IMG/VR virus record: IMGVR_UViG_3300022821_000014
Coordinates: 1-64,000 of that record
Source: a virus
Reading direction: 5' to 3' (one strand)
DNA length: 64,000 bases
In this document: piece by piece, positions 3,501 through 57,654 of the stretch
Position numbering within the stretch: position 1 is the first letter of the stretch
How the letters are laid out: each line of letters opens with the position of its first letter
Program-made: the position numbers and the translations under genes
The notes under the pieces: generated by a model
What the model was told of the DNA's origin: nothing
Database searches by the model: none
What the model saw: only the letters and a program-made list of their open reading frames with translations

Positions 3501-3725
3501 CATGAAGGTAGTTGTTAAAAACGCACCATCCGAAGTATCGATCAGGTATTCAATAAGCGTCGCCTCGGTTTCTGTTGGCCTAGATATTTCTATGTCTACT
3601 GATGATTCGGAATCATTGACGCTGTCTAGTGAAATCCTTTCGGCCAACTCTCTTATGCTGTGGATACCGTAATATTTTCCTAGGACTTTAACAGCATTGG
3701 AAAGTTTTTGTTGTCTAGTAGGCAT
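567..3725 (-). CDS. baseplate hub / tail-associated structural protein
   Basis: 1052 aa downstream of the tape measure and LysM genes; C-terminal GNPLLNFMQTYFIDFQTGTTADNLYAITGVEHKFTQGDFSTSVTF resembles hub (gp27/gpD-like) C-termini. Confidence 0.55.
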   Translation of the reverse strand: MPTRQQKLSNAVKVLGKYYGIHSIRELAERISLDSVNDSESSVDIEISRPTETEATLIEYLIDTSDGAFLTTTFMENFNTQIEQSEVLENDFAKLLQVHYEGDATFYRPEAVIGNAELSEEERREVTTAGVRQMLGYSAPGGDSNVRLNSSPNQPTKDAPGLSIYLSNSKRVTLESQNTAAATIFLNGIPNVELQRAMPYVNVEFFFPRGPKSDISGRLQNLSLNKFLLGGVIPQEGSVLDIMAEGDTVQGTSISSRNATEENPIPDRYSRAGMELFTAPQTLINADDNTSFSARANPIIDKFRPLMTLSDLSITIEPSRGLRSFKRGSLSLLLHDRSRLPEVAEFIRADLYGTNEITIEYGWTHPDGQISVSENAYGDLIDGMRVKEKFMVVNSSFNFEADGQVSIKLNIAMRGSSEFDTELMSSDNETFSNTVREIGELQRQIAELRARAFPASTATTSVEIRGRQILDAAQDATNNPVLGSDLREALAQFRTAYRTSENPSARRLYEVIQELYGDQVTQHRGGGSSGPSGQPTLIATLRRSIQESIGRKVTQLEDSPDPFLLPGYGNGGQRYLSSRSLPQSERSSQRRFNDSRRGALTANISNTFPCSLGKLLLLFVGEPLANTGNYDEVQMFFYPFNEYAGQASKLNIANFIVDIEYFADELARYRLEHISRSSVMSLEQFMNFVADTLVDDPAANSYGLTLDGEALHRLSFPDEEGRVRSTVAASDDAAVFRVRMERALQGVTPDGTFRMPQVGIYVEALPEKVGQNDGEDSEEANGRTILRLHVFDQAATTYESLGRLIQATRRDQIGTIGSFPNLEGGNQAVVDNNQEIASTIIESATSMGLIEWLPYESETRNEQANSRQTPNNSERTYRVVGGSQKLKEFIMANSPYIIYGAAGTTVKAASLASMQNSQLATVNLLRSMRREEAITPNGENSGGLPMQIIPTQLSMDCVGNPLLNFMQTYFIDFQTGTTADNLYAITGVEHKFTQGDFSTSVTFVPSDAWGTYRSLISTVGTALDHLGDAVARENEGNANSSGEASGGSGNTG

Positions 3726-3788
3726 GTTATTGATTAAGTACTCTTATGACTCACTTCCTATGAAGTTTGAATCAACAGCTCTGTTTCC

Positions 3789-4082
3789 CTATCCGATAAA
3801 ACGAAACACGTCTTCCAGATTGGGAATTCGGATCTGCGTCCCAGGAGGAGCTTGAAGCATCCATCCAATATTGGATGCGGCCGCTATAACCCAGCTATAT
3901 CGCCCGTCACCATATGCTTTCCCAGCCAACGTATCAAGTCGCTCACGTTCTACTAAGGTGATTTCGTCAAAGCGTATATTACCATTTTTTATATTATTGC
4001 GAATTGCCGTAATCGCAAAAGAAGTGGCAAACCTCTTTTCCGCTCCAAGGATTCTTGTTCGTGCGTACCTGCTATTGACCAT
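3789..4082 (-). CDS. LysM-like baseplate protein (gp53/gpX-like)
   Basis: ERLDTLAGKAYGDGRYSWVIAAASNI...PGTQIRIP LysM-type pattern within the tail module. Confidence 0.7.
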   Translation of the reverse strand: MVNSRYARTRILGAEKRFATSFAITAIRNNIKNGNIRFDEITLVERERLDTLAGKAYGDGRYSWVIAAASNIGWMLQAPPGTQIRIPNLEDVFRFIG

Positions 4083-17731: not shown

Positions 17732-17977
17732 TCAGGAATCTTCTTCACCTGAATCTGGCCTGGTAACAACTCTATCCGAACTTCCACTGCTGTAAGTGTA
17801 ATCCAGGAAAAACAATAGATCAGATGGTAACGTCATCGGTTGGACTGATACCATCTCGTTGACAAAATTACTTGGGAAGATTCGTCTGGAGAATGGGAAG
17901 GTGCGACTAGACTTGTATCTGGCAATCAGCTTACGGAAGCCTTTCACCGTCAACTTTAGTTCGTCGCAATCATTCAT
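17732..17977 (-). CDS. mini-protein: shared leader helix + major-capsid-protein (Gol-region)-like fragment
   Basis: LTVKGFRKLIARYKS then FPFSRRIFPSNFVNEMVSVQPMTLPSDLLFFLDYTY, matching the gp23 pattern RR..P.......VQPM..P.G..F. Confidence 0.7.
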   Translation of the reverse strand: MNDCDELKLTVKGFRKLIARYKSSRTFPFSRRIFPSNFVNEMVSVQPMTLPSDLLFFLDYTYSSGSSDRVVTRPDSGEEDS

Positions 17978-18046: not shown

Positions 18047-18335
18047 CTACGTAAATCTTCGAAGTTTACTTGGCACAACTGCTCTTTGTTTACCAGACAT
18101 GGCTCGGACATCGGGTGTGTTATGGTGAGCCCCCTTTGAAGGAACCTGTGAACCACCACCCTTGTTAACTTCAACAGCTTTACGGATTTCCTTGTCAATT
18201 CTTTCGATGAGCCAACGTCGGTACCGCACAGGCATGTTGTAGTATGTCCTGAAATCTAGTCCAAAGTAGTACCCAAGCAAGAAGAAGGGTTCAAGGAAAA
18301 CTAACTCTCTATGTTCTGGCGTTAGGCCAAAAAAA
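18047..18335 (-). CDS. tail assembly chaperone frameshift extension (GT-like)
   Basis: FFGLTPEHRELVFLEPFFLLGYYFGLDFRTYYNMPVRYRRWLIERI overlaps the chaperone end at a T7 run. Confidence 0.7.
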
Positions 18336-19217
18336 CGTGGGGCCCATGGGAAGAGCAATGTCTGCCACATGGTCACAATTCTGGCACATGAATTCTACGG
18401 TCATGTCCACACCTGGTTCATTCTCATCGATGTATTGTCGGAGAGCAAGAGAGTCACGTGCAGGCATATACTGCACAAATTTGGAAATCTGACCTCTGTC
18501 GGTCACGCCATCAATCTCGACGATGGAAGATAGGAGCCTTGTCGTGATTAGGTTTTCGTTCTGGATGCCCTTCTTCTTTTTGACTTCAAGTGCCTGAAGG
18601 ATCTTTTCCTCTTCTTCACCCGTGAGGAACCTGAATCCTATACGCCTTTTGGTCATTGGAAGGTCGAAGTAGAAAAGGTTGGCAAAGTCGTTACCAGGAG
18701 TAAGTTTTAATGGCTTGATGTCGAGGGACGCAAGGTCAACCTGTAGTTCATTTTGTACGCTGCAAGACGGGCAGTTGAATACAGGGTTGTACTCACGGCC
18801 ATAGCCCGAGACTCGGATTGCAACCATGAGTGCATTTCGGTCACCAGAAATCATCTCATTTACATTGACAGACTTATCCAGAAGACAAGACTTGATCAGC
18901 TCAGTAATAACCGTGCCCTTTTTGATGTAAGCACGGCTCATAAGAATATCTTCTTCCCGTGCAGTCATTGCTCGGAACTCGACACGAGTTTTGGCGTGCA
19001 GAGCGTGACCTGCTTCGTATATACGACCTGCTGAAGGCAGTGGTACAGCGTCAACAGGGATATCGAGGCCAAGCTCTTGTTTGGCATACTCCTGCCTGCT
19101 AAGTGGTTGCAATTCGCCCCCACTAGCATCCTCTGCCGCCTGTTTGGCGGCGAACACAGAGTTGCGTAGTTCACGCCTCTCATCTTCAGTCATCGGTTGT
19201 TGTTGGCCTTCGGACAT
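18309..19217 (-). CDS. tail/baseplate assembly chaperone (T4 gp26-like)
   Basis: VPLPSAG..Y, MTAREEDIL, GDRNALMVAIRVSGYG, two CxxC pairs, ends FFWP. Confidence 0.8.
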   Translation of the reverse strand: MSEGQQQPMTEDERRELRNSVFAAKQAAEDASGGELQPLSRQEYAKQELGLDIPVDAVPLPSAGRIYEAGHALHAKTRVEFRAMTAREEDILMSRAYIKKGTVITELIKSCLLDKSVNVNEMISGDRNALMVAIRVSGYGREYNPVFNCPSCSVQNELQVDLASLDIKPLKLTPGNDFANLFYFDLPMTKRRIGFRFLTGEEEEKILQALEVKKKKGIQNENLITTRLLSSIVEIDGVTDRGQISKFVQYMPARDSLALRQYIDENEPGVDMTVEFMCQNCDHVADIALPMGPTFFWPNART

Positions 19218-19330: not shown

Positions 19331-19654
19331 TTACAGAGTCTTCTGAGTGTACTGGTTTTTCAGGTGTACGCCCTTTGTGAACTGTGCGTTTGAATCACGA
19401 TACTCCATGACCGCAGCAATGAGCCTCCTGGCTTCTCCGACTGTCATTGGAGCATCTGGCTTTGCCTTTGTCGAACTCACAAGTATTGGAAATACCATGA
19501 TTGGTGACACCATAAGTGGCACATAGGGTGCGTACACGTAACCTGTACTTAAATAAGAATATCCCTTTCGGGTCTGTAAATAGATGTCACGTATTTTGAG
19601 TTCAACTAGGTACTTGGCAATAATCTTTCGAATGTCACCTATCTTCAAAACCAA
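19331..19654 (-). CDS. mini-protein: two leader helices + major-capsid C-terminal-like fragment
   Basis: LKIGDIRKIIAKYL...RKGYSYLSTGYVYAPYVPLMVSP...MTVGEARRLIAAVMEY; G..YAPYVPL is a gp23 hallmark. Confidence 0.7.
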   Translation of the reverse strand: MVLKIGDIRKIIAKYLVELKIRDIYLQTRKGYSYLSTGYVYAPYVPLMVSPIMVFPILVSSTKAKPDAPMTVGEARRLIAAVMEYRDSNAQFTKGVHLKNQYTQKTL

Positions 19655-19799
19655 GCTTACTTTCTATCAACGACCAAAGAATTTTTTGGTCAATCAACTT
19701 GTCAATATTCTGGGCTGCTCTACGAAAGCACCTCATGGTTTCTGGTTCAACAGCGTGTAGGTAACCAGCTATTTTTATCCTCATTGCATTTTTTGTCAT
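19635..19799 (-). CDS. mini-protein with shared leader helix (54 aa)
   Basis: MTKNAMRIKIAGYLHAVEPETMRCFRRAAQNIDKLIDQKILWSLIESKLGFEDR; manual translation. Confidence 0.55.
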   Translation of the reverse strand: MTKNAMRIKIAGYLHAVEPETMRCFRRAAQNIDKLIDQKILWSLIESKLGFEDR

Positions 19800-19821
19800 C
19801 GATTACCAAATTCTAGAATCA

Positions 19822-19950
19822 TTATAGGTTCCTAAAGTTTCGAATTATCTTAGGGCCTAGGCCGAGCAATGTTTCTAAATGACGGACGTTGATTGCACTT
19901 CTCTCTTCAAGGTGCAATGCGATAATTTTTCGAGCTTCGTTGATTGACAT
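19822..19950 (-). CDS. mini-protein with shared leader helix (42 aa)
   Basis: MSINEARKIIALHLEERSAINVRHLETLLGLGPKIIRNFRNL; TAATG coupling to the FkbM gene stop. Confidence 0.6.
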   Translation of the reverse strand: MSINEARKIIALHLEERSAINVRHLETLLGLGPKIIRNFRNL

Positions 19951-40405: not shown

Positions 40406-40813
40406 CTAGCCTATTATGACCAATTCAACATGTCCACTATCCTTAATCGACAGGAACAAACTTTCTGTTTTAAACTTGTCAATCTTATACAGTGGAATTT
40501 CTGTACCAGCTAGAATCAAGCTGCCAAAAACAACTTCGTCTGTGTTACAAGGACTAATCTCTGGTGGTCTAAAATTAATGAGAACTTCCATGATTACGCT
40601 AACCAAACTTTCAGGGTCGAGTGAGATCGCCTTGACAATTCCAAGCTCATCTTGTATTGACATTATTAGTGGCATGAGGGTATGATACCACTCGTATACA
40701 CTGTACCGACCTGTACTCCCACTATTCCAGTCATCTGATAACACATCACCTGTTTTGGGGTCTACTAGCTTTCCTGGCAATCTTGACCAATATCTTCTGG
40801 TGGCGAGTTTCAC
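40406..40813 (-). CDS. possible major-capsid A-domain paralogue
   Basis: YWSRLPGKLVDPKTG...SVYEWYHTLMPLI...VSVIMEVLINFR...VFGSL. Confidence 0.55.
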   Translation of the reverse strand: MKLATRRYWSRLPGKLVDPKTGDVLSDDWNSGSTGRYSVYEWYHTLMPLIMSIQDELGIVKAISLDPESLVSVIMEVLINFRPPEISPCNTDEVVFGSLILAGTEIPLYKIDKFKTESLFLSIKDSGHVELVIIG

Positions 40814-41772
40814 TTTCCATGCGCCTTTAGTGCCTCAGCCTCTTCAACGGAATCCTTGTTTACACCCGCAAAAGTCAAATGTTCCTTTGCATCACGTTGC
40901 ATGACCAATGCATCGGTATATAGTGCGTCAACGTACTCTTGGTAAGCAGGGTTGTAAAGAACCCTGTTGAAATTAGGCTTGTAGAATTTTTCCTCAACAA
41001 GAATTTCACCCGTACTCTGGTCAGTCACAGTGAATGTTTTCCAAGCAGCTGTGCCAGCGACGAGGATCGATTTCCCGTTATGAACTACACCGTAAGCATC
41101 CTTATCTTGTTTGATAACTTCCGTACAATGTGCACGAAACAAGTCAAAAACTTCTTCATGTTCAACAACGCCGACGCCGAAGATAATCTGGAACTCACAA
41201 GTGCGGAATGGCCGAGCTACACGGTTCTTGATCGTCTTGGCTTTCACCTTAATGCCAATGACGTTCCCTGCATTATCTTTAATTTGCTGCTGCCCAGTAG
41301 AAGAAATACGAACACGGACTGAACTTGCGTAAGGGATAGCCATCCCACCAGGTGTTGTAGTGTTGTGGTTAATAAACCCTTCAGCAATATAGTTGTGAGT
41401 GTCTTCCACTTCGCAATCAACAACTTGTATGGGGTGTTGTACTTGTTCAGCACCAATGTAGTCTTCAAGACGAATATACTCGCCATCAACAAAGATCTTA
41501 TGGTCTTTGGTGCCGTGAAGAGTATTTGCTTGGTAGTGCTCGTCTGCATTTTGTTTGACGACAAACGTTTTCAGTGGCTTCCAAACTTCCTGCTTGGATT
41601 CGTGATCATATGAGAGGATTTCATATTTTTCATGTTCTATATTGTAGATTTCTGGCGTATTTAGATCTTCTATACCTATACGTTTTGCCAATTCACGAAA
41701 TGTGATTTCCTCTTCCACGAACTGACGTTCATGCCTTGTTTCAAGATTGTGTTTTTTTATTTCGGTTTCCAT
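40810..41772 (-). CDS. recA: RecA C-terminal half fused to split-intein C fragment (~137 aa)
   Basis: ...HGTKDH...VVDCEVEDTHNYIAEGFINHN|TTTPGGMAIPYASSVRVRI...KNRVARPFR; start uncertain (41772 or 41859). Confidence 0.88.
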   Translation of the reverse strand: METEIKKHNLETRHERQFVEEEITFRELAKRIGIEDLNTPEIYNIEHEKYEILSYDHESKQEVWKPLKTFVVKQNADEHYQANTLHGTKDHKIFVDGEYIRLEDYIGAEQVQHPIQVVDCEVEDTHNYIAEGFINHNTTTPGGMAIPYASSVRVRISSTGQQQIKDNAGNVIGIKVKAKTIKNRVARPFRTCEFQIIFGVGVVEHEEVFDLFRAHCTEVIKQDKDAYGVVHNGKSILVAGTAAWKTFTVTDQSTGEILVEEKFYKPNFNRVLYNPAYQEYVDALYTDALVMQRDAKEHLTFAGVNKDSVEEAEALKAHGK

Positions 41773-42586
41773 AAGTTTCTGTCTTTCGGTGGCAAGCTTC
41801 ACACAATGTTCTTCCGTTTGAGGTTCTCCAAAGAGGTTCATATCTTTTTGCCTCTTCAACAGATTTGATATTACCTTCTTCTAAAAGCAAACAAAAAGGA
41901 TAAATGTGATCTACGTGCAATTTTTCTGTTCTATCGCATCTGATGCATTTGTGCTCATCACGTTTCAGAGCACTCTGCCTCCATTTTCGATATGCGTAAC
42001 TTTTCCTAATCAAACTAGCGGTTTTCGTTAAACCACTTTTCCAATTTGGATTTTTTTCTTTTCTTTTTGGGTTTGCTTTATTGTATCTTATTATCCAAGA
42101 ACGCAATTTTTTCCTGTGTTCCTCGGTCGGCTGATATCTTGGACTTGGTATAGCTTTTATTGGATAAAACTGGCTAAGCTTGTCTATAATTCGTTTTGTT
42201 TTTCTTAGTTTGAGATTTAGTTTATTGGCTATGTGCCCGTAAGGTACTTCCGCCTGGCACAATGCAATTATTTGTTCATAATCTTCTGGTGATAAATCCT
42301 GGGGCAGGTATTTGATCTGCTTTTTAGCGCACTGATCCCGAACATATCTGCGATAAACCCTATCGGAAATTCCTAGTTTAGTCTTAATCCACCTGGGCGG
42401 GACGAACCTTTTATCCCAATAACCGTGAAGTTATTTAACTTGTTCCTCCGAAAGGATAACCTTCTGAGCTTCTCCAATGTTTCTTCGCCGCTCTTTCGAA
42501 AAGACCTTTCCCGTATTCGCTGCTGCGATTTTCCGCCTTGTTTCTTTTGAGTGTGCATACCTTTTTTTGTTCTTTGCTGGTTTCAT
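41741..42586 (-). pseudogene. NUMOD3/HNH homing endonuclease with internal TAA
   Basis: HSKETRRKI (NUMOD3)...VK*LHGYW...RDEHKCIRC...HVDHI...NGRTLCEACH in a single frame; stop at 42431-42433. Confidence 0.8.
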
Positions 42587-42590
42587 GCAG

Positions 42591-43325
42591 CTAAACATAC
42601 TTGCGAATTCGAATCCTAGTGTCTGGAGTAACGCAAGGGTCTCCAAACATGACACCGATCTTCTGACGTTGTTGGTTAATGAGAAGGAAGAGGACATTTT
42701 GGTTACCAATAATATTGACGATTTTACGCATGCCTTTACCTAACACACGGGCTTGGAGGCCAATCGTGTTAGAGTCATAATCGCCCTCAAGCTCAGCTTT
42801 AGGAGACGAGGCGGCAATAGAATCCCACACGATTGTTACTGGAACATTCTTTTGCATAGCACGAGCCTTAAGGATCGTTGATTCAGCAATTTTGAAAATT
42901 TCTTCCGTGCACGCTGTCTGACAAAAGATGAAACGGTTACTTACGTCGATACCAATTGCACTAAGGTTATCAAGGCTAGTGGCGTTTTCCGTATCTATGT
43001 AAACAACTATTCCTCCCATCTTCTGGGTCGCCTTAGAGGCTTCGAAAGCAATGTGTGATTTGCCGCTTGATGTTGGCCCCTGAATTTCTACAATCCTACC
43101 TTCTGGAAAGCCCCCGACTGCTTGGTTTGCAATGATCGCATCAAGCTGTCGTGAGCCTGTGCTAATCCATCGTTTGATATTTGTTGGGGCGTCATCGGTA
43201 GAAAGATTGAAAGCGATATTCTCGCCGTTCTCCTTGTTCAACTGCTTAATAAGGTCAGTTGTAAAGTCATCACCCATGTCATCTGCACTGGCGGTGTCTG
43301 TTGTTGTTTTTTTCTTTTTGGCCAC
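42591..43325 (-). CDS. recA: RecA N-terminal half with 14-aa split-intein N fragment
   Basis: GRIVEIQGPTSSGKS, YIDTE, VWDSIAA, GLQARVL, INQ...KIGVMFGDP|CVTPDTRIRIRKYV*. Confidence 0.9.
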   Translation of the reverse strand: MAKKKKTTTDTASADDMGDDFTTDLIKQLNKENGENIAFNLSTDDAPTNIKRWISTGSRQLDAIIANQAVGGFPEGRIVEIQGPTSSGKSHIAFEASKATQKMGGIVVYIDTENATSLDNLSAIGIDVSNRFIFCQTACTEEIFKIAESTILKARAMQKNVPVTIVWDSIAASSPKAELEGDYDSNTIGLQARVLGKGMRKIVNIIGNQNVLFLLINQQRQKIGVMFGDPCVTPDTRIRIRKYV

Positions 43326-43432: not shown

Positions 43433-44311
43433 TTAGAAAACAGTACCAACGTCATCATCCAAGTCGGCGAATGCATCTTCAATGCTCTTCACCGTGTTGG
43501 AGTGTTCCTTATCTCGATCGGCACCCTTAGAAGCATTGTGATCCTTGCCTGTGCCCAGTTCCTTGCTCTCGGTATCCTCCTCACCGTCATCTCCAGCTGT
43601 TTTAGCAAGGAAGTTCTCAACCGTTTGCTGAAGCTGCTCAGGGTTACGAACCTGACCCTTGAAGTAAGCCTCAAGGTCTGGTACGGATGCGACAAGAGCG
43701 TCGACGTCCTTTTTTCCCTTGGCGAGCCTTGTGGGCTTGCGGCGAGGAGTCAGGTTGTAGTTCTTGACTTTCCACTTGCCGAACATCTTACCAGAGTCTT
43801 CTACGTCAAGAGTGAAATCAAATCCGTTCTCAGCATCCATCATGTCCTCATCGGCATAATCAGGGTGAGCAAGAATAGAGTAAATGTCCTTGAGGATCTT
43901 GGAGTTCAACTCCCAAATCTGAACGCCCCGATCCTCTTCTCCACGCACAACAATAGGTGCATAAAAGCGATCCTTTGGACGCAGGTTGTTCATAAGACGC
44001 CAGGTCTCACGTGTATTCTCTTTACGAAGCTCATTGATAAGGTCGAAGATTGGGTCTTCTAGCTGATACTGAGCGGGGGATACGAAACGGCGCTCAGAAA
44101 GCTCCTTGTTGTCGTAATAAGACACTTCCTCGAAAGGTTGACCCTGTCGATCGGTGTAGGGCATGAAACGAATTTCATAACTGTTTTTACTGCCATCCGC
44201 AAGTAGTGAAGGCTTGAACCAGGTGAGTTTCACTCGGTCACTTTTGCCCCCGTTGCGGCCACCAGAAAGGTCAGCGATTTTTTGTTTGATTGCATCAAGA
44301 TTATATGCCAT
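43433..44311 (-). CDS. single-stranded DNA-binding protein (gp32-like)
   Basis: WFKP...IRFMP...RFYAPIVVRGEE...GFDFTL; acidic C-terminal tail. Confidence 0.8.
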   Translation of the reverse strand: MAYNLDAIKQKIADLSGGRNGGKSDRVKLTWFKPSLLADGSKNSYEIRFMPYTDRQGQPFEEVSYYDNKELSERRFVSPAQYQLEDPIFDLINELRKENTRETWRLMNNLRPKDRFYAPIVVRGEEDRGVQIWELNSKILKDIYSILAHPDYADEDMMDAENGFDFTLDVEDSGKMFGKWKVKNYNLTPRRKPTRLAKGKKDVDALVASVPDLEAYFKGQVRNPEQLQQTVENFLAKTAGDDGEEDTESKELGTGKDHNASKGADRDKEHSNTVKSIEDAFADLDDDVGTVF

Positions 44312-44346
44312 GTGTATTTCCTATTTGTTTCTATTGTTTGTGTTTA

Positions 44347-45234
44347 TTATTTGGTTGCGCAAACATCATGCTTGCGTGTCATGTAGAATTTACCCATGGT
44401 TTTTGGGTAAACATACTTTTTAATTTTCGTGCTAAGATTATTCCCACTGTATTTCAACTCATAACATTGGGCAGTCTTTATTTTGTACGGTCTTTTATTG
44501 GGAATGCCAGTATTCTCGGTTAACTGGCGTTGTAACTCTTTCAAGAAATCTTGTGAGGCAGACGCAATTTGCAGTCCTAATGTTGGCGTAACACCTTCTC
44601 TGTTTCTAATAAACCAGCAACCATCTCCATCAATAAACCCTCTGATATAATGTGGGTAAAAAGATTCTTTCAGATTGGGCCAGGACAAATTGTGAGTTTT
44701 TTGTGGTGTCACCCCATAACAAGATAAATCAGACTTTAATCTTCTGCTGCTGACTTCAAAAGTCGAATAAGGTCCGTACGTTCTGACCTTATTTTCTGCC
44801 TCTAATTCTTCTCTAAGGTATTCTAACAAATATGCATCTTCATTTTTCAGTGTCAATTTAATTGCATTGCGTTTCGTTGAAACACATCCATCGGCTGCCA
44901 ACAATCCTAGAAAGTAAGCTTTGGAAGGTGTGTTAATATGTGAAAAATATTTTTGATTGACCTTGTTGGACCTGGGTCCAGGTGAACGTAATTTACGGTT
45001 GTGTTTTGTCAGTAACCATCTGACCCAGGATAAACTCTTGTTGAAATATTTGGCTGTCTTAGACACACCTTCGACAAGGTATTTTTTATACACCTCATCA
45101 GGATTATAAGCCATTCGTTGTCTGTTCCATTCCTTTCTATAAGTATGGTTCATTGGGTCGAAATTGACCAATTCTAAGCGTCCGAGATGAAGATTTATCT
45201 TCAATGATTTCAAGTACTTACGCACTGCAAGCAA
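44347..45234 (-). CDS. LAGLIDADG homing endonuclease
   Basis: AYFLGLLAADGCV and HYIRGFIDGDGCW; start uncertain. Confidence 0.88.
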   Translation of the reverse strand: MLAVRKYLKSLKINLHLGRLELVNFDPMNHTYRKEWNRQRMAYNPDEVYKKYLVEGVSKTAKYFNKSLSWVRWLLTKHNRKLRSPGPRSNKVNQKYFSHINTPSKAYFLGLLAADGCVSTKRNAIKLTLKNEDAYLLEYLREELEAENKVRTYGPYSTFEVSSRRLKSDLSCYGVTPQKTHNLSWPNLKESFYPHYIRGFIDGDGCWFIRNREGVTPTLGLQIASASQDFLKELQRQLTENTGIPNKRPYKIKTAQCYELKYSGNNLSTKIKKYVYPKTMGKFYMTRKHDVCATK

Positions 45235-45259: not shown

Positions 45260-45409
45260 TTAAATTGACGCAGAATTGAGGGAAGTTTTACTACTTATGT
45301 GCAAGTTTGTAAGTTTGAGTACCGCTTCTTTAATAGCTACATTCAGTGTGAGTTTGACTACCACCAGACGATACTTCATGATAAGTTTTTGTGCTTCCTT
45401 CACTGTCAT
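45260..45409 (-). CDS. mini-protein with shared leader helix (49 aa)
   Basis: MTVKEAQKLIMKYRLVVVKLTLNVAIKEAVLKLTNLHISSKTSLNSASI; TGATG coupling. Confidence 0.6.
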   Translation of the reverse strand: MTVKEAQKLIMKYRLVVVKLTLNVAIKEAVLKLTNLHISSKTSLNSASI

Positions 45410-45558
45410 CACAATTTCCTCTTCCACTCAGGCCATGAGGCAACCTGTTGCTTCGCTTTTTCGCTAGCGGAAATGATATCCTTGAGATAATATACCCTGC
45501 GCCAGGCGACCCTTGACTTATATCGGGCTATCAACTTCTTACAATCAGCGGGGTTCAT
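45409..45558 (-). CDS. mini-protein with shared leader helix (49 aa)
   Basis: MNPADCKKLIARYKSRVAWRRVYYLKDIISASEKAKQQVASWPEWKRKL. Confidence 0.6.
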   Translation of the reverse strand: MNPADCKKLIARYKSRVAWRRVYYLKDIISASEKAKQQVASWPEWKRKL

Positions 45559-45646
45559 ACATTTTTACCATATTGCTGGCTGCCTTGACAAGTTCCCAGT
45601 ATCTGGTGTAGTACGTGATCAGCTTTCTACAGTCAGTCTTAGTCAA
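45545..45646 (-). CDS. mini-protein with shared leader helix (33 aa)
   Basis: TTG start; MTKTDCRKLITYYTRYWELVKAASNMVKMYEPR. Confidence 0.5.
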   Translation of the reverse strand: MTKTDCRKLITYYTRYWELVKAASNMVKMYEPR

Positions 45647-46247
45647 TAACGGAAGTCTTACCAGACGCCTGCATGCAAGCAACTCGAACGGCTGTCTGAA
45701 GAACAACGGACAACATTGGAGATTCGTACAACTCTGAGGAGTACATTTGGTTCATGTGCCCAAGACTAGAAATTGCGTGCACTTCTTCTTCTGTGAGAAG
45801 AACTCTGGAGGAGTTTAACCACCAAAGCGAACGTTGAGTTGGATGCATCTTTGGGAGATTGGTATTCAACTCGTACATCATGCCCTTGTTGCGGTGCCAG
45901 TCACTTTCCTGCTCGACATAGTGGTCTTCTTCCTGATTGCCGATTTTACCTAGGTCGTGAAAAAGGCACGTAACAATCAAACTATCTGCTGATAACTTGG
46001 ACCCGAAAACCCTGTTAAGGTCTTTCGCAAGCTTGAGTACATTCAAGCTGTACTCAACAAGCCCACCTGGGTAGGCACCGACGAATTCAAGACGTGTAGA
46101 GGCTGGCGCAGCTGCCAGCCGTTCTTTTACTTCATCACAGAGTGAAAGAAGTTCAGTTTTCACATCTTCGTTTTTAATGCGACCAACTAGGCTCATATAA
46201 AGTTCCCAATTGGATTCAAGTCTTGCGACCAATTTATCGTGGCTCAT
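45639..46247 (-). CDS. HD-domain protein
   Basis: APAS...AYPGGLVEYSLNV...LFHDLGKIG; several family His residues appear substituted. Confidence 0.75.
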   Translation of the reverse strand: MSHDKLVARLESNWELYMSLVGRIKNEDVKTELLSLCDEVKERLAAAPASTRLEFVGAYPGGLVEYSLNVLKLAKDLNRVFGSKLSADSLIVTCLFHDLGKIGNQEEDHYVEQESDWHRNKGMMYELNTNLPKMHPTQRSLWWLNSSRVLLTEEEVHAISSLGHMNQMYSSELYESPMLSVVLQTAVRVACMQASGKTSVID

Positions 46248-52509: not shown

Positions 52510-54840
52510 TTAGTCATCTTTACGTTCGATCACATCCAACTTGGTAAAATGTGTTGAAAGGCCGAAATCTGACTTTTTAAATCTAGCTAACACAAGTGTA
52601 TTGCTAGGAATCACTGCATCACGCTTAGGGTTGAATCCCCAGATAAAACACCCCTGCTCTGAGCCAGACTCTCCATAGACTTTCATTCTCAGATATGGTT
52701 TTCCATTCCTTGTTTTGGCTACTACACTTCGTTTTACAACTGCCCAATAATAACTGTTTTCACTGCGCCATTCATCAACAGACCCAATACCATTTTCTTC
52801 GAAGTAGGCCTTGATCTCCTTTGTGATGATAAGGTTGATGTTCACTGAACCTGCAAGCGTCTGACTGTGCTCGATCTTCTCATCAATCGTCCAGTCCTTA
52901 AGCCCCTGAGCCTCCTTAATAAGGTCTTCCAGGATTTCTGGTGGACGTGGTTCTTTTTTCCGTGAACAGGCTCTTTTTAGATTATCAGCTTGGTCGACAA
53001 GCACATAATGCATTTGGCGATAGTTCTTGAACATCTTGTCTTCACCGACAAGGTCCATAGACTCAAAAGCTTCAAGCTTTATAAGAGTTGAAAGGGCTCT
53101 CTTGTTGAATTTGCTGTGCCTCCATGTCTGATCCTGATTCCATAGAAGCTCCTCAACCGTTTTGTAGGGTCGGAATTCTTGAATTTCCCTTAGTGTGGGC
53201 ATGCCAACATGCTTCAGTGCCTGGAAACTTGGAATTAGCACTCCGTTTTTGACCTGATAATCTGCCTCAGACTCGTTGATGTCAGGCTTCCCAACCTTGT
53301 AACCAAGACCCTTAGCTTCACCAAGGGCGATTGAGATAGGCGCTTCTTTGCCTGTAACGTGTCCCTTATCAGTTGCACAGTAATCGATATAACTGGCCAT
53401 CCACTCATCTGGATGATAGGTGAGAAGCCAAGCACACTGATATGAAGTGATGGCATAGGCGGTAGCGTGGCTCTTATTGAACGAGTATGCTACGAACTCT
53501 TCCATCTCGTCAAAAATCTTGTAGCTGGTAATCAGCTGCGTGCCGTGTACTTCTTTGCATTTGATGGCGAAATCTTCACGCATCTGCTTTCTCTGTGCGT
53601 CAGCTGCACCCTTGTTAGATTTGTCCTTCTTTGTGAAGGATTTACGAACCATGTCGGTCTCTTCGAGAGGAACCCCAGCCATCTGATGGTAGATGAGCTG
53701 TAGTTGCTCCTGGAAAACAATTAGTCCACAGGTGACATCCAGCACCTCTTCGAGTAACTCATGTTTGTAGATGATGCTCTCAGGGTTTTTGCGGTTGTTC
53801 AAATACAACTTGTCAGCTCCGATGGCTAGAGGTCCAGGGCGGAAAATCGAAGTTGCTGTTGCGATATCAAGGATGGTCCTTGGCTTCATCTTCTTAATGA
53901 ATTTCTGTACGGGAGGCTGGACGAACTGAAAAACTCCAGCCCAGTTGCCGTTCCAATACACATGTTTGTAGACTTTGATGTCATCCATCTGATTGTTGTC
54001 TGGATGAAGGTTCGTATAGAACCAGTCCTGCACATTTCGGAATGTTGGGTATTTGGTACCCTGTTTCTTTAGAATACGTCGAATTGTGTTCTCAAATATC
54101 CTAAGCGTACCAAGCCCAAGAATATCAAACTTTAGAAGCCCGAAACCTTCAAGGTGACGAAAATTCAATCCCTCTTGCCAAGGCGTTTGAAGAACCCCAC
54201 CGCTCTTGATGAGCGGCATGTGCTTATTGGGAGTCTCCGTAATGATGACGCCGCCAGCATGTCGTGAGACGTTTCTCATTTGCTTGAACAACACCTTGAT
54301 GTTGTTTTCAAGGTCAGGGAACTCAACCATAAGCTCCTGAAAAGTCTTGGACTTCTCAGCTGCCTCGTCAAATGTCAATGTCCACAGCTGTCGGTCGAAG
54401 CCTGGCTTCTTCTTCGCCTCACCCAATGCCTCACTTTCAATTTTACGTGTGTATTTATTGACCTCTTCGAATGGCACTCCATTCAAGCGACACAAGTCCT
54501 TAACCAATGAGCGCATTTGAAGTTGGTTGAAGTTAGAAATCGGGATGACGTTCTCTTCACCAAAGTGTTCAGCAATAAGCTGAACTGCTTTCTCACGGTC
54601 TGAGAAATCAGAGTCAATATCGGGAAAGCCTTTCTTGAAGCGTGTGAGGAAACGCTCAAAAAGTAGGCCATACCTGATCGGGTCTAGCTGAGTAATGTTC
54701 AGAACATAAGCAAGCAAAGACCCGCCAGCAGAATTGTGTACTCCTAATCCTTCAATGTTATATGAATGAGATTCACTGACGGTGAGATCATGAACCTTGC
54801 CTGTGTAATGGAATAGAGTCTTTTTTGTTAGCTTTGCCAA
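52510..54840 (-). CDS. dnaE: DNA polymerase III alpha, C-terminal half with 36-aa split-intein C fragment
   Basis: VHDLTVSESHSYNIEGLGVHN|SAGGSLLAY, LLFERFL, PDIDSDF, HAGGVII, KFDILGL, YSFNKSHA; TTG start with AAGGA RBS. Confidence 0.92.
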   Translation of the reverse strand: MAKLTKKTLFHYTGKVHDLTVSESHSYNIEGLGVHNSAGGSLLAYVLNITQLDPIRYGLLFERFLTRFKKGFPDIDSDFSDREKAVQLIAEHFGEENVIPISNFNQLQMRSLVKDLCRLNGVPFEEVNKYTRKIESEALGEAKKKPGFDRQLWTLTFDEAAEKSKTFQELMVEFPDLENNIKVLFKQMRNVSRHAGGVIITETPNKHMPLIKSGGVLQTPWQEGLNFRHLEGFGLLKFDILGLGTLRIFENTIRRILKKQGTKYPTFRNVQDWFYTNLHPDNNQMDDIKVYKHVYWNGNWAGVFQFVQPPVQKFIKKMKPRTILDIATATSIFRPGPLAIGADKLYLNNRKNPESIIYKHELLEEVLDVTCGLIVFQEQLQLIYHQMAGVPLEETDMVRKSFTKKDKSNKGAADAQRKQMREDFAIKCKEVHGTQLITSYKIFDEMEEFVAYSFNKSHATAYAITSYQCAWLLTYHPDEWMASYIDYCATDKGHVTGKEAPISIALGEAKGLGYKVGKPDINESEADYQVKNGVLIPSFQALKHVGMPTLREIQEFRPYKTVEELLWNQDQTWRHSKFNKRALSTLIKLEAFESMDLVGEDKMFKNYRQMHYVLVDQADNLKRACSRKKEPRPPEILEDLIKEAQGLKDWTIDEKIEHSQTLAGSVNINLIITKEIKAYFEENGIGSVDEWRSENSYYWAVVKRSVVAKTRNGKPYLRMKVYGESGSEQGCFIWGFNPKRDAVIPSNTLVLARFKKSDFGLSTHFTKLDVIERKDD

Positions 54841-55744
54841 TGTTATTTTCCTTGTGCCACTTTCGAGCTTCTTTAATCAGTTGTTTCGGAATGTCAGAGT
54901 CAAATACTAGTCTAGCATAAAACTCGTTGTCTTTGCACCACGCCTTCAGTGCATGGTCTTTTGCGTTGCAGCGCCATTGCAATTTTTTGTAATAGAGGCC
55001 ACCACGACCTTTCACTTCAACAATTCGATTTTGATTTACAATGAAATCTGGGTAGTATCGATGTTCTTTTCCTTCAAATACATACGGAATCCCCTCTAGA
55101 TCAAATCGCTTAAGCGAATAACCTTTTTCTAGTGACCAGATAATGAACGCCAATTCATAAGAACTTTGGTATGTAAGACCTTCATACATACCAGATATCG
55201 CAATAGAATTTTTGATTACATTTTCACGGTATTCTGCGCTCTTCCAAAGCCTTTTCTCAATTTGTCTATACTTCTCTTTCATGCCAGGTTGTGCATGTCT
55301 TCTTTTCTGTGAAGCTGTTTGCCTTGCAAGAGTTTCAGGCCGATTTTGCGCTATAAGTTGGGCTTTGCTATTGTTGGCTCGCCATTCGGTATCGTAGGCA
55401 AACTGTTCTTTGTAACAACTATCACAAACTGGTTTTTGGTGTTTCCTTCTCATAAACCCAAATACGATACAAACATAGTCCTTACCACACGGACATTGGA
55501 TGTAGAGGTTGTTTTTATTGTATTTGCTGTGAAGTTTTTGATTTGCCTGAAACTCCATCCAAGAGTACCCAAACTTAGTTTCGATGCCCGAGCGCCAGGC
55601 TCGTCGCTTCAATGAATGCCAGGTCATCTTCCACTCTGTTAACATAGGTGCTAGCATGTCCTCTGTCAGACATGGAGATTCTATGTTCTCGATTGTCTGT
55701 AGTTGTTCTGCGGTCAACTTTGGACAAATTACACGGCCACCCAT
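54788..55744 (-). CDS. TnsA-like PD-(D/E)xK homing endonuclease
   Basis: YQSSYELAF...IPY...YYPDFIV...IVEVKG; CPCG...CDSC Zn site. Confidence 0.8.
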   Translation of the reverse strand: MGGRVICPKLTAEQLQTIENIESPCLTEDMLAPMLTEWKMTWHSLKRRAWRSGIETKFGYSWMEFQANQKLHSKYNKNNLYIQCPCGKDYVCIVFGFMRRKHQKPVCDSCYKEQFAYDTEWRANNSKAQLIAQNRPETLARQTASQKRRHAQPGMKEKYRQIEKRLWKSAEYRENVIKNSIAISGMYEGLTYQSSYELAFIIWSLEKGYSLKRFDLEGIPYVFEGKEHRYYPDFIVNQNRIVEVKGRGGLYYKKLQWRCNAKDHALKAWCKDNEFYARLVFDSDIPKQLIKEARKWHKENNIGKANKKDSIPLHRQGS

Positions 55745-55787
55745 GTTCGTGAATAGTTGTGTTCAATGGTAAAGGCCGAGGGACTGG

Positions 55788-55915
55788 TTATGAAACCAAT
55801 ACATGGATTAGAAACATTGGCAAAGGGCAAAAATGCAAGTTTAAACCATCTGCTTTTTGTCCCAAAACAAACCAACCCACAAATCACGTGGTTCAAATTT
55901 CACTGCCAGCTTCAT
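55788..55915 (-). pseudogene. small phage protein with apparent 1-nt frameshift
   Basis: MKLAVKFEPRDLWVGLFWDKK/ADGLNLHFCPLPMFLIHVLVS needs one extra A in an A5 run; ATGA-coupled to the dnaE-N stop. Confidence 0.5.
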
Positions 55916-57654
55916 ACTTCAACGACAACATCTTCTTCGGTGAGGTGTTGAGCTTCGACCCAGCTTCTATTTGAAGTTAGAATCTCATGGTTCTTGGTAC
56001 ATCTAATCACCTTACCGTTGTCGAGTTCAAGTTCAATACATTCTTCATCGATGTCATATGTCATAGTGTTTTCCACAGATTGTTCATTACCAAATGCGTC
56101 TATTACTTTATCGCTGATGATGATATCTTGAATTTTGGCATGCAACCCATCCGCCATTTTCACACGAGACCCTGGGAGAAAGCATCCTCGGGCGTTTCCA
56201 ATCAGCATGTGTTCACTTACAATCTCCATAATTTTGGAGTACGTGAGGAAATACTTTGAGAAGTTCAGATGCTTGATGACCTTCAGCTCGTGCTTGAGTC
56301 GGGCAATGTACTCCTGGTTTTCAGCAAACCCTCTGCGTTTTATACCTGCAATTGCCTGACGCTTCAGTTCCTGAAAAGCAACCTGGTCTTCGGTCGCCTC
56401 GGTCCCAACCTTATCATAGATTGTTTCCAACTCAAACTTATCTACCATGCGACTGATCGATGGTAGTTTTACAGAACGATCTGGCGTGATATCATCAATC
56501 TGGTCGTGAGCAATTGTGTGTGTTCGTTCAATAGCCTCGCACACCAGATCGTCATCATAGAAATCCCAGCCCTTGCCTTCCTTATACCTGTGGTATGATT
56601 CCCAAACCTGCTCGGCATTCTTTGGATAAAGTTCACATTTCAACTCTTCCATCTTCTGCGGGAGTTTGGAAGTATCCAAGCCTTGGCCTCTGGAAGACCA
56701 CGCCATCATCTTGTAAATCTCACGCTGCTTCCAGTGGTCTGGGTGAGAGTAGTGTGCATCCACTGTTACAACAAGCTTAGTATTTGTACGCTTACTCGCT
56801 TCAATGAGATGTTGGTTTACAAGATGCTGCGCTCCCAGGGAGTTGAACTGAAGTTCGAGATAATAATTCTCTTCACCAAGAGCCCACTTGAAGCCATCAA
56901 CAACCTTTTTCAATTCCTGTTGAATCTCATCAAAGTGCAGGTCATTGGGCTCCCAGTTCTCGAAGTTTGGGTCTTTCTGTCGGTCAAATACCTTCCGTGC
57001 GGGTACTCCACCTACACATGCCGTTAGAGCAATGATGTTACCCTTTGCGTACTTCTTGAGCATCTCCAGGTCCATCCTGGGGTAGCGATAAAAGCCATCA
57101 ACGTAAGACTCAGAAACAAGCTGGTTAAGTGCTGTAAGGCCCTCACGGTTTTTTGGAAGTAAAACAAGGTGATTTCTCTGGTTCAGAGGGTCGCCATATT
57201 TATTGCCCTTCGTTTCTTCCTCGTTTTCTACTACCGTGCCCGCAACCGTATCTTCCAAATCAAGTTTTGTTGAGGCATATGCATCCCCAAGAAGCTCTAG
57301 ATGTCTCTTGAGCTGGTCCTTAGCATCGACATTACCCTTCTTTACTAGCTTCTCTAGACGCTTGATTTCTCTACGGCCATCATAAATTTCCTGCCATCGT
57401 GGAAGTGAATCAATGAAGTAAGCTTCAATGCCTGGCAGTGCCTTGAAGTTCACGCCCTTCTTTACCAGTTTTTCATGGTGAAAAAACTGGTGTGAATAAC
57501 CATTCATGTTGCCATGGTCTGTAAGCGCCAGGGCATCCATTCCGTTATCAATGGCATAATTGATATGATCTTGCGGCATGCCGATTGCATCACCAATCGA
57601 AAACGTACTGTGGGAATGCAATCCCACAAACTTCTTAGGGTATTTCTTATTCAT
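55912..57654 (-). CDS. dnaE: DNA polymerase III alpha, N-terminal (PHP) half with 90-aa split-intein N fragment
   Basis: LHSHSTFS, ALTDHG, DAHY, YFL...GNARG|CFLPGSRVKMADG...CTKNHEILT..WVEAQHL. Confidence 0.92.
   Translation of the reverse strand: MNKKYPKKFVGLHSHSTFSIGDAIGMPQDHINYAIDNGMDALALTDHGNMNGYSHQFFHHEKLVKKGVNFKALPGIEAYFIDSLPRWQEIYDGRREIKRLEKLVKKGNVDAKDQLKRHLELLGDAYASTKLDLEDTVAGTVVENEEETKGNKYGDPLNQRNHLVLLPKNREGLTALNQLVSESYVDGFYRYPRMDLEMLKKYAKGNIIALTACVGGVPARKVFDRQKDPNFENWEPNDLHFDEIQQELKKVVDGFKWALGEENYYLELQFNSLGAQHLVNQHLIEASKRTNTKLVVTVDAHYSHPDHWKQREIYKMMAWSSRGQGLDTSKLPQKMEELKCELYPKNAEQVWESYHRYKEGKGWDFYDDDLVCEAIERTHTIAHDQIDDITPDRSVKLPSISRMVDKFELETIYDKVGTEATEDQVAFQELKRQAIAGIKRRGFAENQEYIARLKHELKVIKHLNFSKYFLTYSKIMEIVSEHMLIGNARGCFLPGSRVKMADGLHAKIQDIIISDKVIDAFGNEQSVENTMTYDIDEECIELELDNGKVIRCTKNHEILTSNRSWVEAQHLTEEDVVVEV

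What the first reader, a model, noticed from the sequence alone, without database searches (positions are those of the whole stretch)
45260..45646. Second tandem array of the same leader-helix micro-ORFs, 25 kb away
Seen: three overlapping, coupled ORFs of 33-49 aa, missed by the ORF track, start MTKTDCRKLITYY, MNPADCKKLIARYKS and MTVKEAQKLIMKYR. KLIARYKS is identical to the leader of the 17732 ORF. The window therefore has about eight copies of M[TS]xx[ED]x[RK]K[LI]IxxY with unrelated C-termini; these three payloads are not capsid-like. Inference: a constant docking helix plus variable payload, suggesting a modular peptide-effector or adaptor family.
Basis: partly seen in the sequence, partly recalled or inferred. 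Interest (0 to 1): 0.72.

Follow-up and report, generated by a model that had tools for sequence, protein, structure and literature searches.

The report
Small phage proteins sharing one head-helix
Three tiny back-to-back genes in an uncultured salt-lake giant phage are real and conserved. They encode single-helix proteins that begin with the same 13-residue helix as the phage's capsid-excerpt mini-proteins; what the helix binds is unknown.

Summary
On the minus strand, between an HD-phosphohydrolase gene and a LAGLIDADG homing-endonuclease gene upstream of gp32, lie three packed ORFs of 33, 49 and 49 aa. All three start with T-x-x-[ED]-x-[RK]-[KR]-[LI]-I-A-x-Y.

The motif is kept at the peptide level, with synonymous codon differences and no DNA repeat. 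It occurs only in two clusters of the 91-kb contig, eight copies in all.

The genes look real:
- Their codon usage is coding-like.
- A related metagenome contig (L101) has the same HD / three small ORFs / HEG / gp32 layout.
- ORF2 has a clear orthologue there: 22 identical residues, 15 of them through different codons.
- In ORF1 and ORF3 only the leader survives between genomes.

An HMM built only from unrelated metagenomic mini-proteins (helix plus major-capsid N-arm excerpt, the family of the 17732 ORF) hits the three N-termini in register. The three payloads match no capsid segment. AlphaFold models ORF2 and ORF3 as single long helices.

"Constant helix, exchangeable payload" is supported. 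"Docking" is inferred: no partner or function is shown.

This scan has noted similar tagged mini-gene sets in other giant phages. I found no published description. The family is narrow and low-copy.

The parts
45545..45646 (-). ORF1, 33 aa, TTG start overlapping the HD gene stop; leader helix plus short basic tail (pI 9.6)
   Evidence: Codon-usage score is 0.161, above the 99th percentile of wrong-frame small ORFs. The external mini-protein HMM hits residues 2-16 in register, p 0.01. L101 has a 33-aa leader ORF with an ATG start at the same place.
45409..45558 (-). ORF2, 49 aa, pI 10.2; leader helix containing KLIARYKS, and a conserved C-terminal S-W-P-E-W-K-R-x-L motif
   Evidence: The orthologue in L101 (1707-1850) gives Smith-Waterman z 15.3. 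There are 22 identical residues, 15 through synonymous-different codons. Weaker positional relatives exist in L005 (z 4.7) and L099 (z 2.8). AlphaFold2 models one helix over residues 3-40, pLDDT 91.6.
45260..45409 (-). ORF3, 49 aa, pI 10.2, ATG start behind a GAGG Shine-Dalgarno; leader helix plus a hydrophobic-faced helix
   Evidence: Codon-usage score is 0.186. It resembles the 19447 ORF (z 5.9). AlphaFold2 models one helix over residues 3-48, pLDDT 87.4. L101 has a 60-aa leader ORF at the same position.
45639..46247 (-). Context: upstream HD-domain phosphohydrolase gene, to whose stop ORF1 is coupled
   Evidence: Pfam HD and phrog_5889. It is syntenic in L002, L005, L007, L099, L100 and L101.
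44347..45234 (-). Context: downstream LAGLIDADG homing-endonuclease gene. The likely true start is ATG 45114, whose ribosome site and first codons copy the gp32 5' end.
   Evidence: Pfam LAGLIDADG_3. The 5' duplication is shown. The same HEG (52% aa identity) sits in the same place in L101 and is absent from L002, L005 and L099.
43433..44311 (-). Context: gp32 single-strand DNA-binding protein gene, the anchor used to find relatives
   Evidence: Pfam gp32; related loci.
17732..17953 (-). Family member in the first array: leader helix plus an excerpt of the major-capsid N-arm (Gol-equivalent region)
   Evidence: Pfam Gp23 scores 30.8 bits, over the cut-off. It matches capsid HMM positions 83-126 at 48.6 bits. 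Orthologues exist in G001, L016 and L020, and at least 13 small metagenomic proteins share this architecture.
19331..19950 (-). The rest of the first array. 19822-19950 is leader only. 19635-19799 is a weak leader. 19448-19654 is a leader plus a capsid C-terminal excerpt. 19331-19447 is a second leader-bearing unit.
   Evidence: The capsid HMM matches positions 563-597 at 29.8 bits. The orthologous row is in L016 at 3193-3887. The whole block is absent from G001, where the FkbM gene abuts the baseplate gene.

Best explanation
ORF1-3 are three real, co-transcribed and partly translationally coupled genes of a T4-like giant phage. The contig is 91 kb, about 20% of the genome; a relative's contig is 461 kb. 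They encode very small (33-49 aa), basic proteins, each modelled (ORF2, ORF3) as one long alpha-helix. They belong to a lineage-restricted family whose only constant element is an N-terminal 13-residue amphipathic helix: hydrophobic at positions 3, 6, 9, 10 and 13, basic at 7, 8 and 12.

The same helix heads mini-proteins that carry short excerpts of the major capsid protein. Those lie 25 kb away here, in a closer relative (L016), and, for the N-arm type, in many metagenomic phages.

Shown: the genes are real, they form one family, the helix is conserved at the protein level, the remainder turns over, and the payloads are not capsid-derived.

Inferred: the helix is a common interaction handle that brings different short C-terminal peptides to one partner, or to each other. 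That would make array B the non-capsid cargo members of the same adaptor set. They sit in the replication-gene cluster, so I infer they are made together with those genes. The partner and the biological effect (host takeover, anti-defence or assembly control) are unknown.
For: Gene reality:
- Codon-usage scores are 0.161, 0.117 and 0.186, against a wrong-frame null with 95th and 99th percentiles of 0.097 and 0.152. Each ORF scores best of its six frames.
- Starts sit exactly at the leader, and ORF3 has a strong Shine-Dalgarno.
- The array of three leader ORFs is kept in L101 in the same order and with similar sizes.
- ORF2 against L101-b gives z 15.3, with 15 of 22 identical residues encoded by different codons. 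This includes the C-terminal motif, whose embedded ribosome site is not conserved as DNA.

One family across both arrays:
- The cross-array HMM test is positive.
- There is no DNA repeat, and codons differ synonymously.

Link to the wider helix-plus-capsid-excerpt family:
- A profile search found small proteins matching from profile position 2-9.
- An HMM built from 13 of them, excluding this genome, hits ORF1, ORF2, ORF3 and the L005 ORF at their N-termini in register, with p 0.01, <0.002, 0.01 and 0.004.

Helix constrained, payload free:
- ORF1 against L101-a, and ORF3 against L101-c, are alike only in the leader.
- Column information peaks at positions 2, 7, 9, 10 and 13.

Structure: single long helices with pLDDT 91.6 and 87.4.

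The leader is not itself capsid-derived: the leader HMM scores at best -2.4 bits against 56 capsid proteins, and hhalign gives 0.3% probability.
Against: - No partner is known, and no transcription or translation data exist.
- The family is small: 8 copies in 91 kb, 5 in L016, 3 in L101, 1 in L005, and none in G001, G002 or G004. A general address tag would be expected on more proteins.
- ORF1's cross-array score is weak (5.0 bits), and it has a TTG start without a clear ribosome site.
- Some members are alike beyond the leader. Plain paralogy with a slower-evolving N-terminus explains part of the pattern.
- The AlphaFold models rest on alignments of only 5-10 sequences.
- In some external mini-proteins the helix is internal rather than N-terminal. 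'Leader' is therefore a positional habit of this lineage, not a rule.
Confidence: 0.45

Rival explanations
1. Ordinary fast-evolving paralogue family of single-helix proteins that self-associate. The N-terminal helix is conserved because it is the oligomerisation core (homo- or hetero-coiled coil among family members), not because it docks on an outside partner. The three coupled genes would encode subunits of one small helical bundle.
For: The genes are tightly packed and partly overlapping, and they are conserved as a trio in L101. Both modelled proteins are single long amphipathic helices, which are rarely stable alone. Similarity between some members extends beyond the leader. Leaders within one genome resemble each other more than their orthologues do, without DNA identity.
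Against: The payloads of ORF1 and ORF3 are not conserved between genomes, which is unexpected for subunits of a fixed complex. The same helix sits on capsid-excerpt proteins encoded elsewhere and in phages that lack array B.
Confidence: 0.25
2. A capsid-targeting signal like that of T4 internal proteins. The helix binds the scaffolding core, so the small proteins are packed into the prohead and injected with the DNA.
For: The logic is the same: a short conserved N-terminal peptide on otherwise dissimilar small basic proteins in variable loci (PMC3012670). The helix is also fused to capsid-protein excerpts.
Against: There is no consistent prohead-protease site ([LI]-x-E) after the leader (sequences). 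The genes sit among replication genes (HD, gp32, RecA), not head genes. Other notes of this scan point to a different, more CTS-like leader ending in L-x-E on many enzymes of this genome (e1-5984848), which I did not test. In external family members the helix can be internal.
Confidence: 0.1
3. Non-functional debris. The ORFs would be remnants of gene 5' ends duplicated by homing-endonuclease traffic or recombination, open by chance.
For: The array abuts a LAGLIDADG HEG whose own 5' end is a duplicate of the gp32 start. The genome is full of HEG-linked partial duplications and split genes. The arrays are insertions relative to G001/L002.
Against: Conservation is at the protein level, with synonymous turnover, across genomes whose HEG is only 52% identical. 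Codon usage is coding-like. L005 and L099 have a member at this site without any HEG. The leader matches no 5' end of a larger gene in the contig.
Confidence: 0.07
4. RiPP-like precursor peptides: a conserved leader recognised by a modifying enzyme, with variable cores.
For: A tandem array of small ORFs with a conserved leader and variable C-termini.
Against: No modifying enzyme, protease or exporter is nearby; the neighbours are HD, LAGLIDADG and gp32. The leader is only 13 residues. The cores are basic helices poor in Cys, Ser and Thr patterns. The leader is also fused to 40-60-aa capsid excerpts.
Confidence: 0.02

Closest known systems
Capsid targeting sequence (CTS) of T4-type internal proteins IPI/IPII/IPIII (PMC3012670)
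   Same: A short conserved N-terminal peptide shared by otherwise diverse small basic phage proteins encoded in variable loci. In both cases the tag, not the cargo, is what is conserved.
   Different: No consistent protease cleavage site follows the helix. The genes lie in a replication cluster. Packaging into heads is untested. By eye the sequence is unrelated to the T4 CTS as I recall it (recalled from memory, not run). Copy number is low.
Unnamed metagenomic mini-proteins: helix plus major-capsid N-arm (Gol-equivalent) excerpt (P0002-P0016, P0038, P0063, P0128; window ORF 17732-17953)
   Same: They carry the same helix motif in the same register. They are similarly very small with a hydrophilic tail, and occur in the same phage lineage and genome.
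   Different: ORF1-3 lack any capsid excerpt. Their C-terminal parts are other helices. ORF2's S-W-P-E-W-K-R tail has no counterpart there.
Small early genes of T4-type hyperplastic regions, shuffled through PeSL (promoter-early stem-loop) cassettes
   Same: Tiny, fast-turning-over accessory genes fill spacers between conserved core genes. They are present or absent between close relatives.
   Different: No repeated promoter or stem-loop DNA flanks the ORFs. The unifying feature is a peptide, not a DNA cassette.
Tagged mini-gene sets noted by this scan in other giant phages (e1-5675152, e1-5759298, e1-5380378 and others; unpublished AI notes)
   Same: Small proteins join a shared short helix to varied payloads, among them capsid and portal excerpts. 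Their function is also unknown.
   Different: Most of those tags are C-terminal and sit on dozens of proteins. Here the tag is N-terminal and on eight. I did not compare the sequences directly.

Membership tests
T4-type CTS-bearing internal proteins | Conserved about 10-residue N-terminal peptide on otherwise unrelated proteins | tested here: met
   The leader HMM and its information profile cover 18 sequences from 5 records.
T4-type CTS-bearing internal proteins | Prohead-protease cleavage site ([LI]-x-E) directly after the tag | tested here: not met
   Reading the sequences, only some members have such a triplet, at varying distances. ORF1 and ORF2 have none near the leader.
T4-type CTS-bearing internal proteins | Protein is packaged in the head and injected | not testable with these tools
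   This needs virion proteomics.
Gp23-type major capsid protein / capsid-excerpt mini-proteins (Pfam PF07068) | A segment alignable to the capsid protein profile | tested here: not met
   ORF1-3 get no Pfam hit at E<=10 and no hit to the 56-sequence capsid HMM, p 0.24-0.59. The positive controls 17953 and 19331 score 48.6 and 29.8 bits.
Helix-plus-N-arm mini-protein family (unnamed) | N-terminal helix motif in register | tested here: met
   An independent HMM gives p 0.01, <0.002 and 0.01 against 500 shuffles each.
Helix-turn-helix DNA-binding modules (NUMOD1 / HTH_17-like), considered because of the T-V-x-E-A-x-K-L start | HTH profile match or three-helix fold | tested here: not met
   No Pfam HTH hit for ORF1-3. 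AlphaFold gives one continuous helix.
RiPP precursor arrays | Adjacent leader-dependent modifying enzyme | tested here: not met
   The neighbours are HD, LAGLIDADG HEG, gp32, RecA and SOD.
PeSL-type shuffling cassettes | Repeated promoter plus stem-loop DNA between the small genes | tested here: not met
   No direct repeats were found. Promoter-like and terminator-like sites are not above the shuffle expectation.

The most novel reading that the evidence does not exclude
The 13-residue helix is a portable address. It hands a small library of short peptides to one common partner, such as a host immune sensor or the phage's own assembly or chaperone machinery. The library includes excerpts of the phage's own capsid protein in array A, and other helices such as ORF2's Trp-rich tail in array B. 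It would be a modular decoy/adaptor system not described in print.
Probability: 0.2. Interest if true: 0.85.

Novelty: new variant of a known kind. Interest (0 to 1): 0.55.

Why it matters
Giant phages carry hundreds of tiny unannotated genes. This case gives comparative evidence that three ORFs missed by gene callers are real. It also shows that their conserved part is a short helix shared with mini-proteins displaying capsid-protein excerpts.

If the helix is a common handle, its partner would reveal what the whole set does, including the puzzling capsid-excerpt genes seen repeatedly in giant phages. A 13-residue peptide is an easy bait for pull-downs. If it is only a paralogue family, the result is still a clean new small-protein family with a defined motif.

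Tried and rejected
No match was found in these searches:
- blastn of the region against the phage collection.
- ORF2, and the ORF2-family alignment, against the 5.8-billion protein set. Only the L101 orthologue came back.
- The 17732 ORF with lengths 'longer'.
- ESM Atlas for ORF2.
- Pfam and PHROGs for ORF1-3.

The search for related loci with the HD protein found nothing; gp32 worked as the anchor instead.

Ideas tested and dropped:
- The leader derives from the capsid spine-helix motif or the capsid N-terminus. The leader HMM against 56 capsid proteins, and hhalign, were negative.
- ORF2's R-R-V stretch equals the capsid N-arm. The HMM alignments stop before it.
- The leader is an HTH first helix.
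- The repeat is at the DNA level.
- A T4 late promoter is present; the motif is absent from the window.

Other attempts:
- Complex prediction of ORF1+ORF3+ORF2 gave no verdict (score 0.01). It counts neither for nor against binding.
- Sequencing runs: no RNA holder is listed.
- Laid contigs of four salt-lake runs are nearly identical to the window. There is one low-depth difference in the array, so no population signal of selection could be read.
- The records of L003, L005, L099 and L101 are not held, so the 461-kb relative could not be scanned.
- Literature searches found no description of such genes.

Full report
WHAT IS THERE. The window is the first 64 kb of a 90,967-bp IMG/VR virus contig that CheckV puts at about 20% of a genome. 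Its genes are T4-like: gp32, a RecA/UvsX-type recombinase, a split family-B DNA polymerase, DnaB helicase and a PF12322 baseplate protein. Nearly all lie on the minus strand. The finding's coordinates hold three minus-strand ORFs:
- ORF1, 45646-45545, TTG start, 33 aa.
- ORF2, 45558-45409, ATG start, 49 aa.
- ORF3, 45409-45260, ATG start, 49 aa.

They fill the space between an HD-phosphohydrolase gene (46247-45639) and a LAGLIDADG homing-endonuclease gene (45234/45114-44347), which is followed by gp32 (44311-43433). ORF1's start overlaps the HD stop, ORF2 overlaps ORF1 by 14 nt, and ORF3 overlaps ORF2 by 1 nt. ORF3 has a GAGG ribosome site.

IS THE MOTIF MORE THAN CHANCE? A loose expression of the motif matches six times in six-frame translation of the whole contig. 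All six are on the coding strand and in two clusters (17.9-19.95 kb and 45.4-45.65 kb), against 0.40 +/- 0.66 in shuffles. That expression was written from the data, so I cross-validated.
- An HMM from the four leaders of the first array ranks ORF3 (12.6 bits) and ORF2 (10.8) directly after its training set. The shuffle maximum is 10.1.
- The HMM from ORF1-3 finds the 17953 leader at 14.9 bits, with a shuffle maximum of 12.2.
- ORF1 is weak in this test (5.0 bits).

The copies differ by synonymous codons (three Arg codons, three Leu, three Ile), and there is no direct DNA repeat. The repeat is therefore a peptide, not a DNA element. Each copy begins at a start codon.

ARE THE ORFS GENES? Three lines of evidence say yes.
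- Codon usage. The log-odds scores are 0.161, 0.117 and 0.186, each the best of six frames. The 95th and 99th percentiles of 369 wrong-frame small ORFs are 0.097 and 0.152; the HD gene scores 0.196.
- Synteny. Relatives found through gp32 (65-69% identity: L002/G001, L003-L005, L099; 37-38%: L007, L100) keep the order SOD ... HD - spacer - gp32 - RecA.
- The spacer varies. It holds no ORF in L002. In L005 it holds one leader-bearing ORF overlapping the HD stop (Smith-Waterman z 4.7 to ORF2). In L099 it holds one ORF carrying ORF2's C-terminal motif (z 2.8).

The closest relative, L101 (gp32 N-terminus 93% identical), has the same layout as here. HD is followed by three leader ORFs of 33, 47 and 60 aa, then the LAGLIDADG gene (52% identical), then gp32. 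ORF2 and L101-b are clear orthologues (z 15.3). Of 22 identical residues, 15 use different codons, and Arg is AGG in one genome and CGT in the other inside the conserved S-W-P-E-W-K-R tail. This is protein-level purifying selection. ORF1 against L101-a, and ORF3 against L101-c, share only the leader. The helix is constrained while the rest turns over.

WHAT IS THE LEADER? I searched 1.84 billion representative proteins with a profile of the 17732 ORF plus its G001 orthologue. It returned real gp23-type capsid proteins, matching only the capsid part. It also returned a set of small proteins of 66-131 aa that match from profile position 2-9. These have a helix of the same pattern, a short linker, the capsid N-arm excerpt and a short hydrophilic tail. 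An HMM from 13 of these, none from this genome, hits ORF1, ORF2, ORF3 and the L005 ORF at their N-termini in register, with p 0.01, <0.002, 0.01 and 0.004 against shuffles. The leader is thus the head helix of a widespread mini-protein family.

In L016, a closer relative for the first array, four consecutive small ORFs each start with the helix and continue with a different capsid segment. These are profile positions 368-405, 404-437, 570-598 and 84-136 of a 631-position capsid HMM. The leader itself is not capsid-derived.

SHAPE. All members are basic, with pI 9.4-10.8. AlphaFold2 models ORF2 as one helix over residues 3-40 (pLDDT 91.6) and ORF3 as one helix over residues 3-48 (pLDDT 87.4). 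The alignments are shallow. Conservation peaks at positions 2, 7, 9, 10 and 13. This gives a hydrophobic stripe at 3, 6, 9, 10 and 13 flanked by basic residues, the pattern of a binding or pairing helix.

HOW IT MOST LIKELY WORKS. The following is shown: the genes are real, they form one family, the helix is constant and the payloads change. My inference (0.45) is that the helix is a common handle which brings varied short peptides to one partner. Array B would then be the non-capsid members.

The main rival (0.25) is that the helix is simply the self-association core of a fast-evolving paralogue family. The conserved trio and the single-helix models fit that reading too.

A T4-like capsid-targeting role (0.1) fails the cleavage-site test, and the genes sit among replication genes. 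Debris from homing-endonuclease traffic (0.07) is contradicted by the synonymous-site pattern and by members in genomes without the HEG. A RiPP reading (0.02) lacks any enzyme.

The family is narrow. The leader HMM finds nothing in G001 (81 kb), G002 (40 kb) or G004 (183 kb), and only the five known copies in L016's record. This argues against a genome-wide tagging system.

COMPARISON AND NOVELTY. No Pfam, PHROG, Atlas or protein-database family covers ORF1-3. Two literature searches found no description of such genes.

The nearest concept in print is the CTS of T4 internal proteins (PMC3012670). Here the logic is the same, but the defining cleavage site is not met and packaging is untested. 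This scan has already noted tagged capsid-excerpt mini-genes and shared-tag arrays in other giant phages. Those notes are unchecked leads. One later check priced the mimicry reading at only 13/100, which is why I keep the functional claim modest.

I rate this a new variant of a known kind: a tag-like shared peptide on small phage proteins. Interest is 0.55.

LIMITS. There is no expression evidence. No RNA run holds the stretch, and DNA contigs from at least 15 salt-lake runs are nearly clonal.

Noticed in passing
window 45055-45175 and 44255-44375 (minus strand): The LAGLIDADG gene probably starts at ATG 45114. About 60 nt around that start (ribosome site plus the first 6-7 codons) are a diverged copy of the gp32 5' end at 44311. 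The endonuclease cassette therefore carries a duplicate of its neighbour's translation start. The same HEG sits at the same site in L101 and is absent from L002, L005 and L099.
   Followed up: partly
L016 3193-3595 (+): Two consecutive leader-bearing mini-ORFs carry contiguous capsid-profile segments (368-405, then 404-437). The next ORF carries 570-598, and a fourth beyond the baseplate genes carries 84-136. Each slice of this capsid gene sits behind its own copy of the helix.
   Followed up: partly
window 18047-18376 (-); L010 186-1232; L016 4934-5983: The 109-aa ORF after the baseplate gene is the C-terminal remnant of a second PF12322 baseplate paralogue. That paralogue is intact in G001 and L016, so this phage has lost most of it.
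   Followed up: no
window 40810-43325 (-) against L002 6016-7242 and L005 6029-7192: RecA/UvsX is one continuous gene in the relatives. Here it is split by an intein-like insert and an HNH gene.
   Followed up: no
L101 1574-2029 against window 45260-45646: The three leaders of L101 all read M-L-T...I-K-x-x-I-V-x-Y, while the three here read K-L-I at the core. Leaders resemble their genome-mates more than their orthologues, although the DNA is not identical. This could be concerted evolution or co-evolution with a partner.
   Followed up: partly
L101 844-1574: The HD gene of this relative is read in two overlapping frames, which is a frameshift or a sequencing error.
   Followed up: no
window 52510-57654 (-): The family-B DNA polymerase is encoded as two ORFs of 580 and 776 aa that match the N- and C-terminal parts of phrog_405. 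A 318-aa ORF lies between them.
   Followed up: no
whole window: At least 15 salt-lake or lake-water metagenome runs from 2017-2019 hold half or more of the sampled words. The four runs laid differ by at most three letters over 1.2 kb, so the population is nearly clonal.
   Followed up: partly
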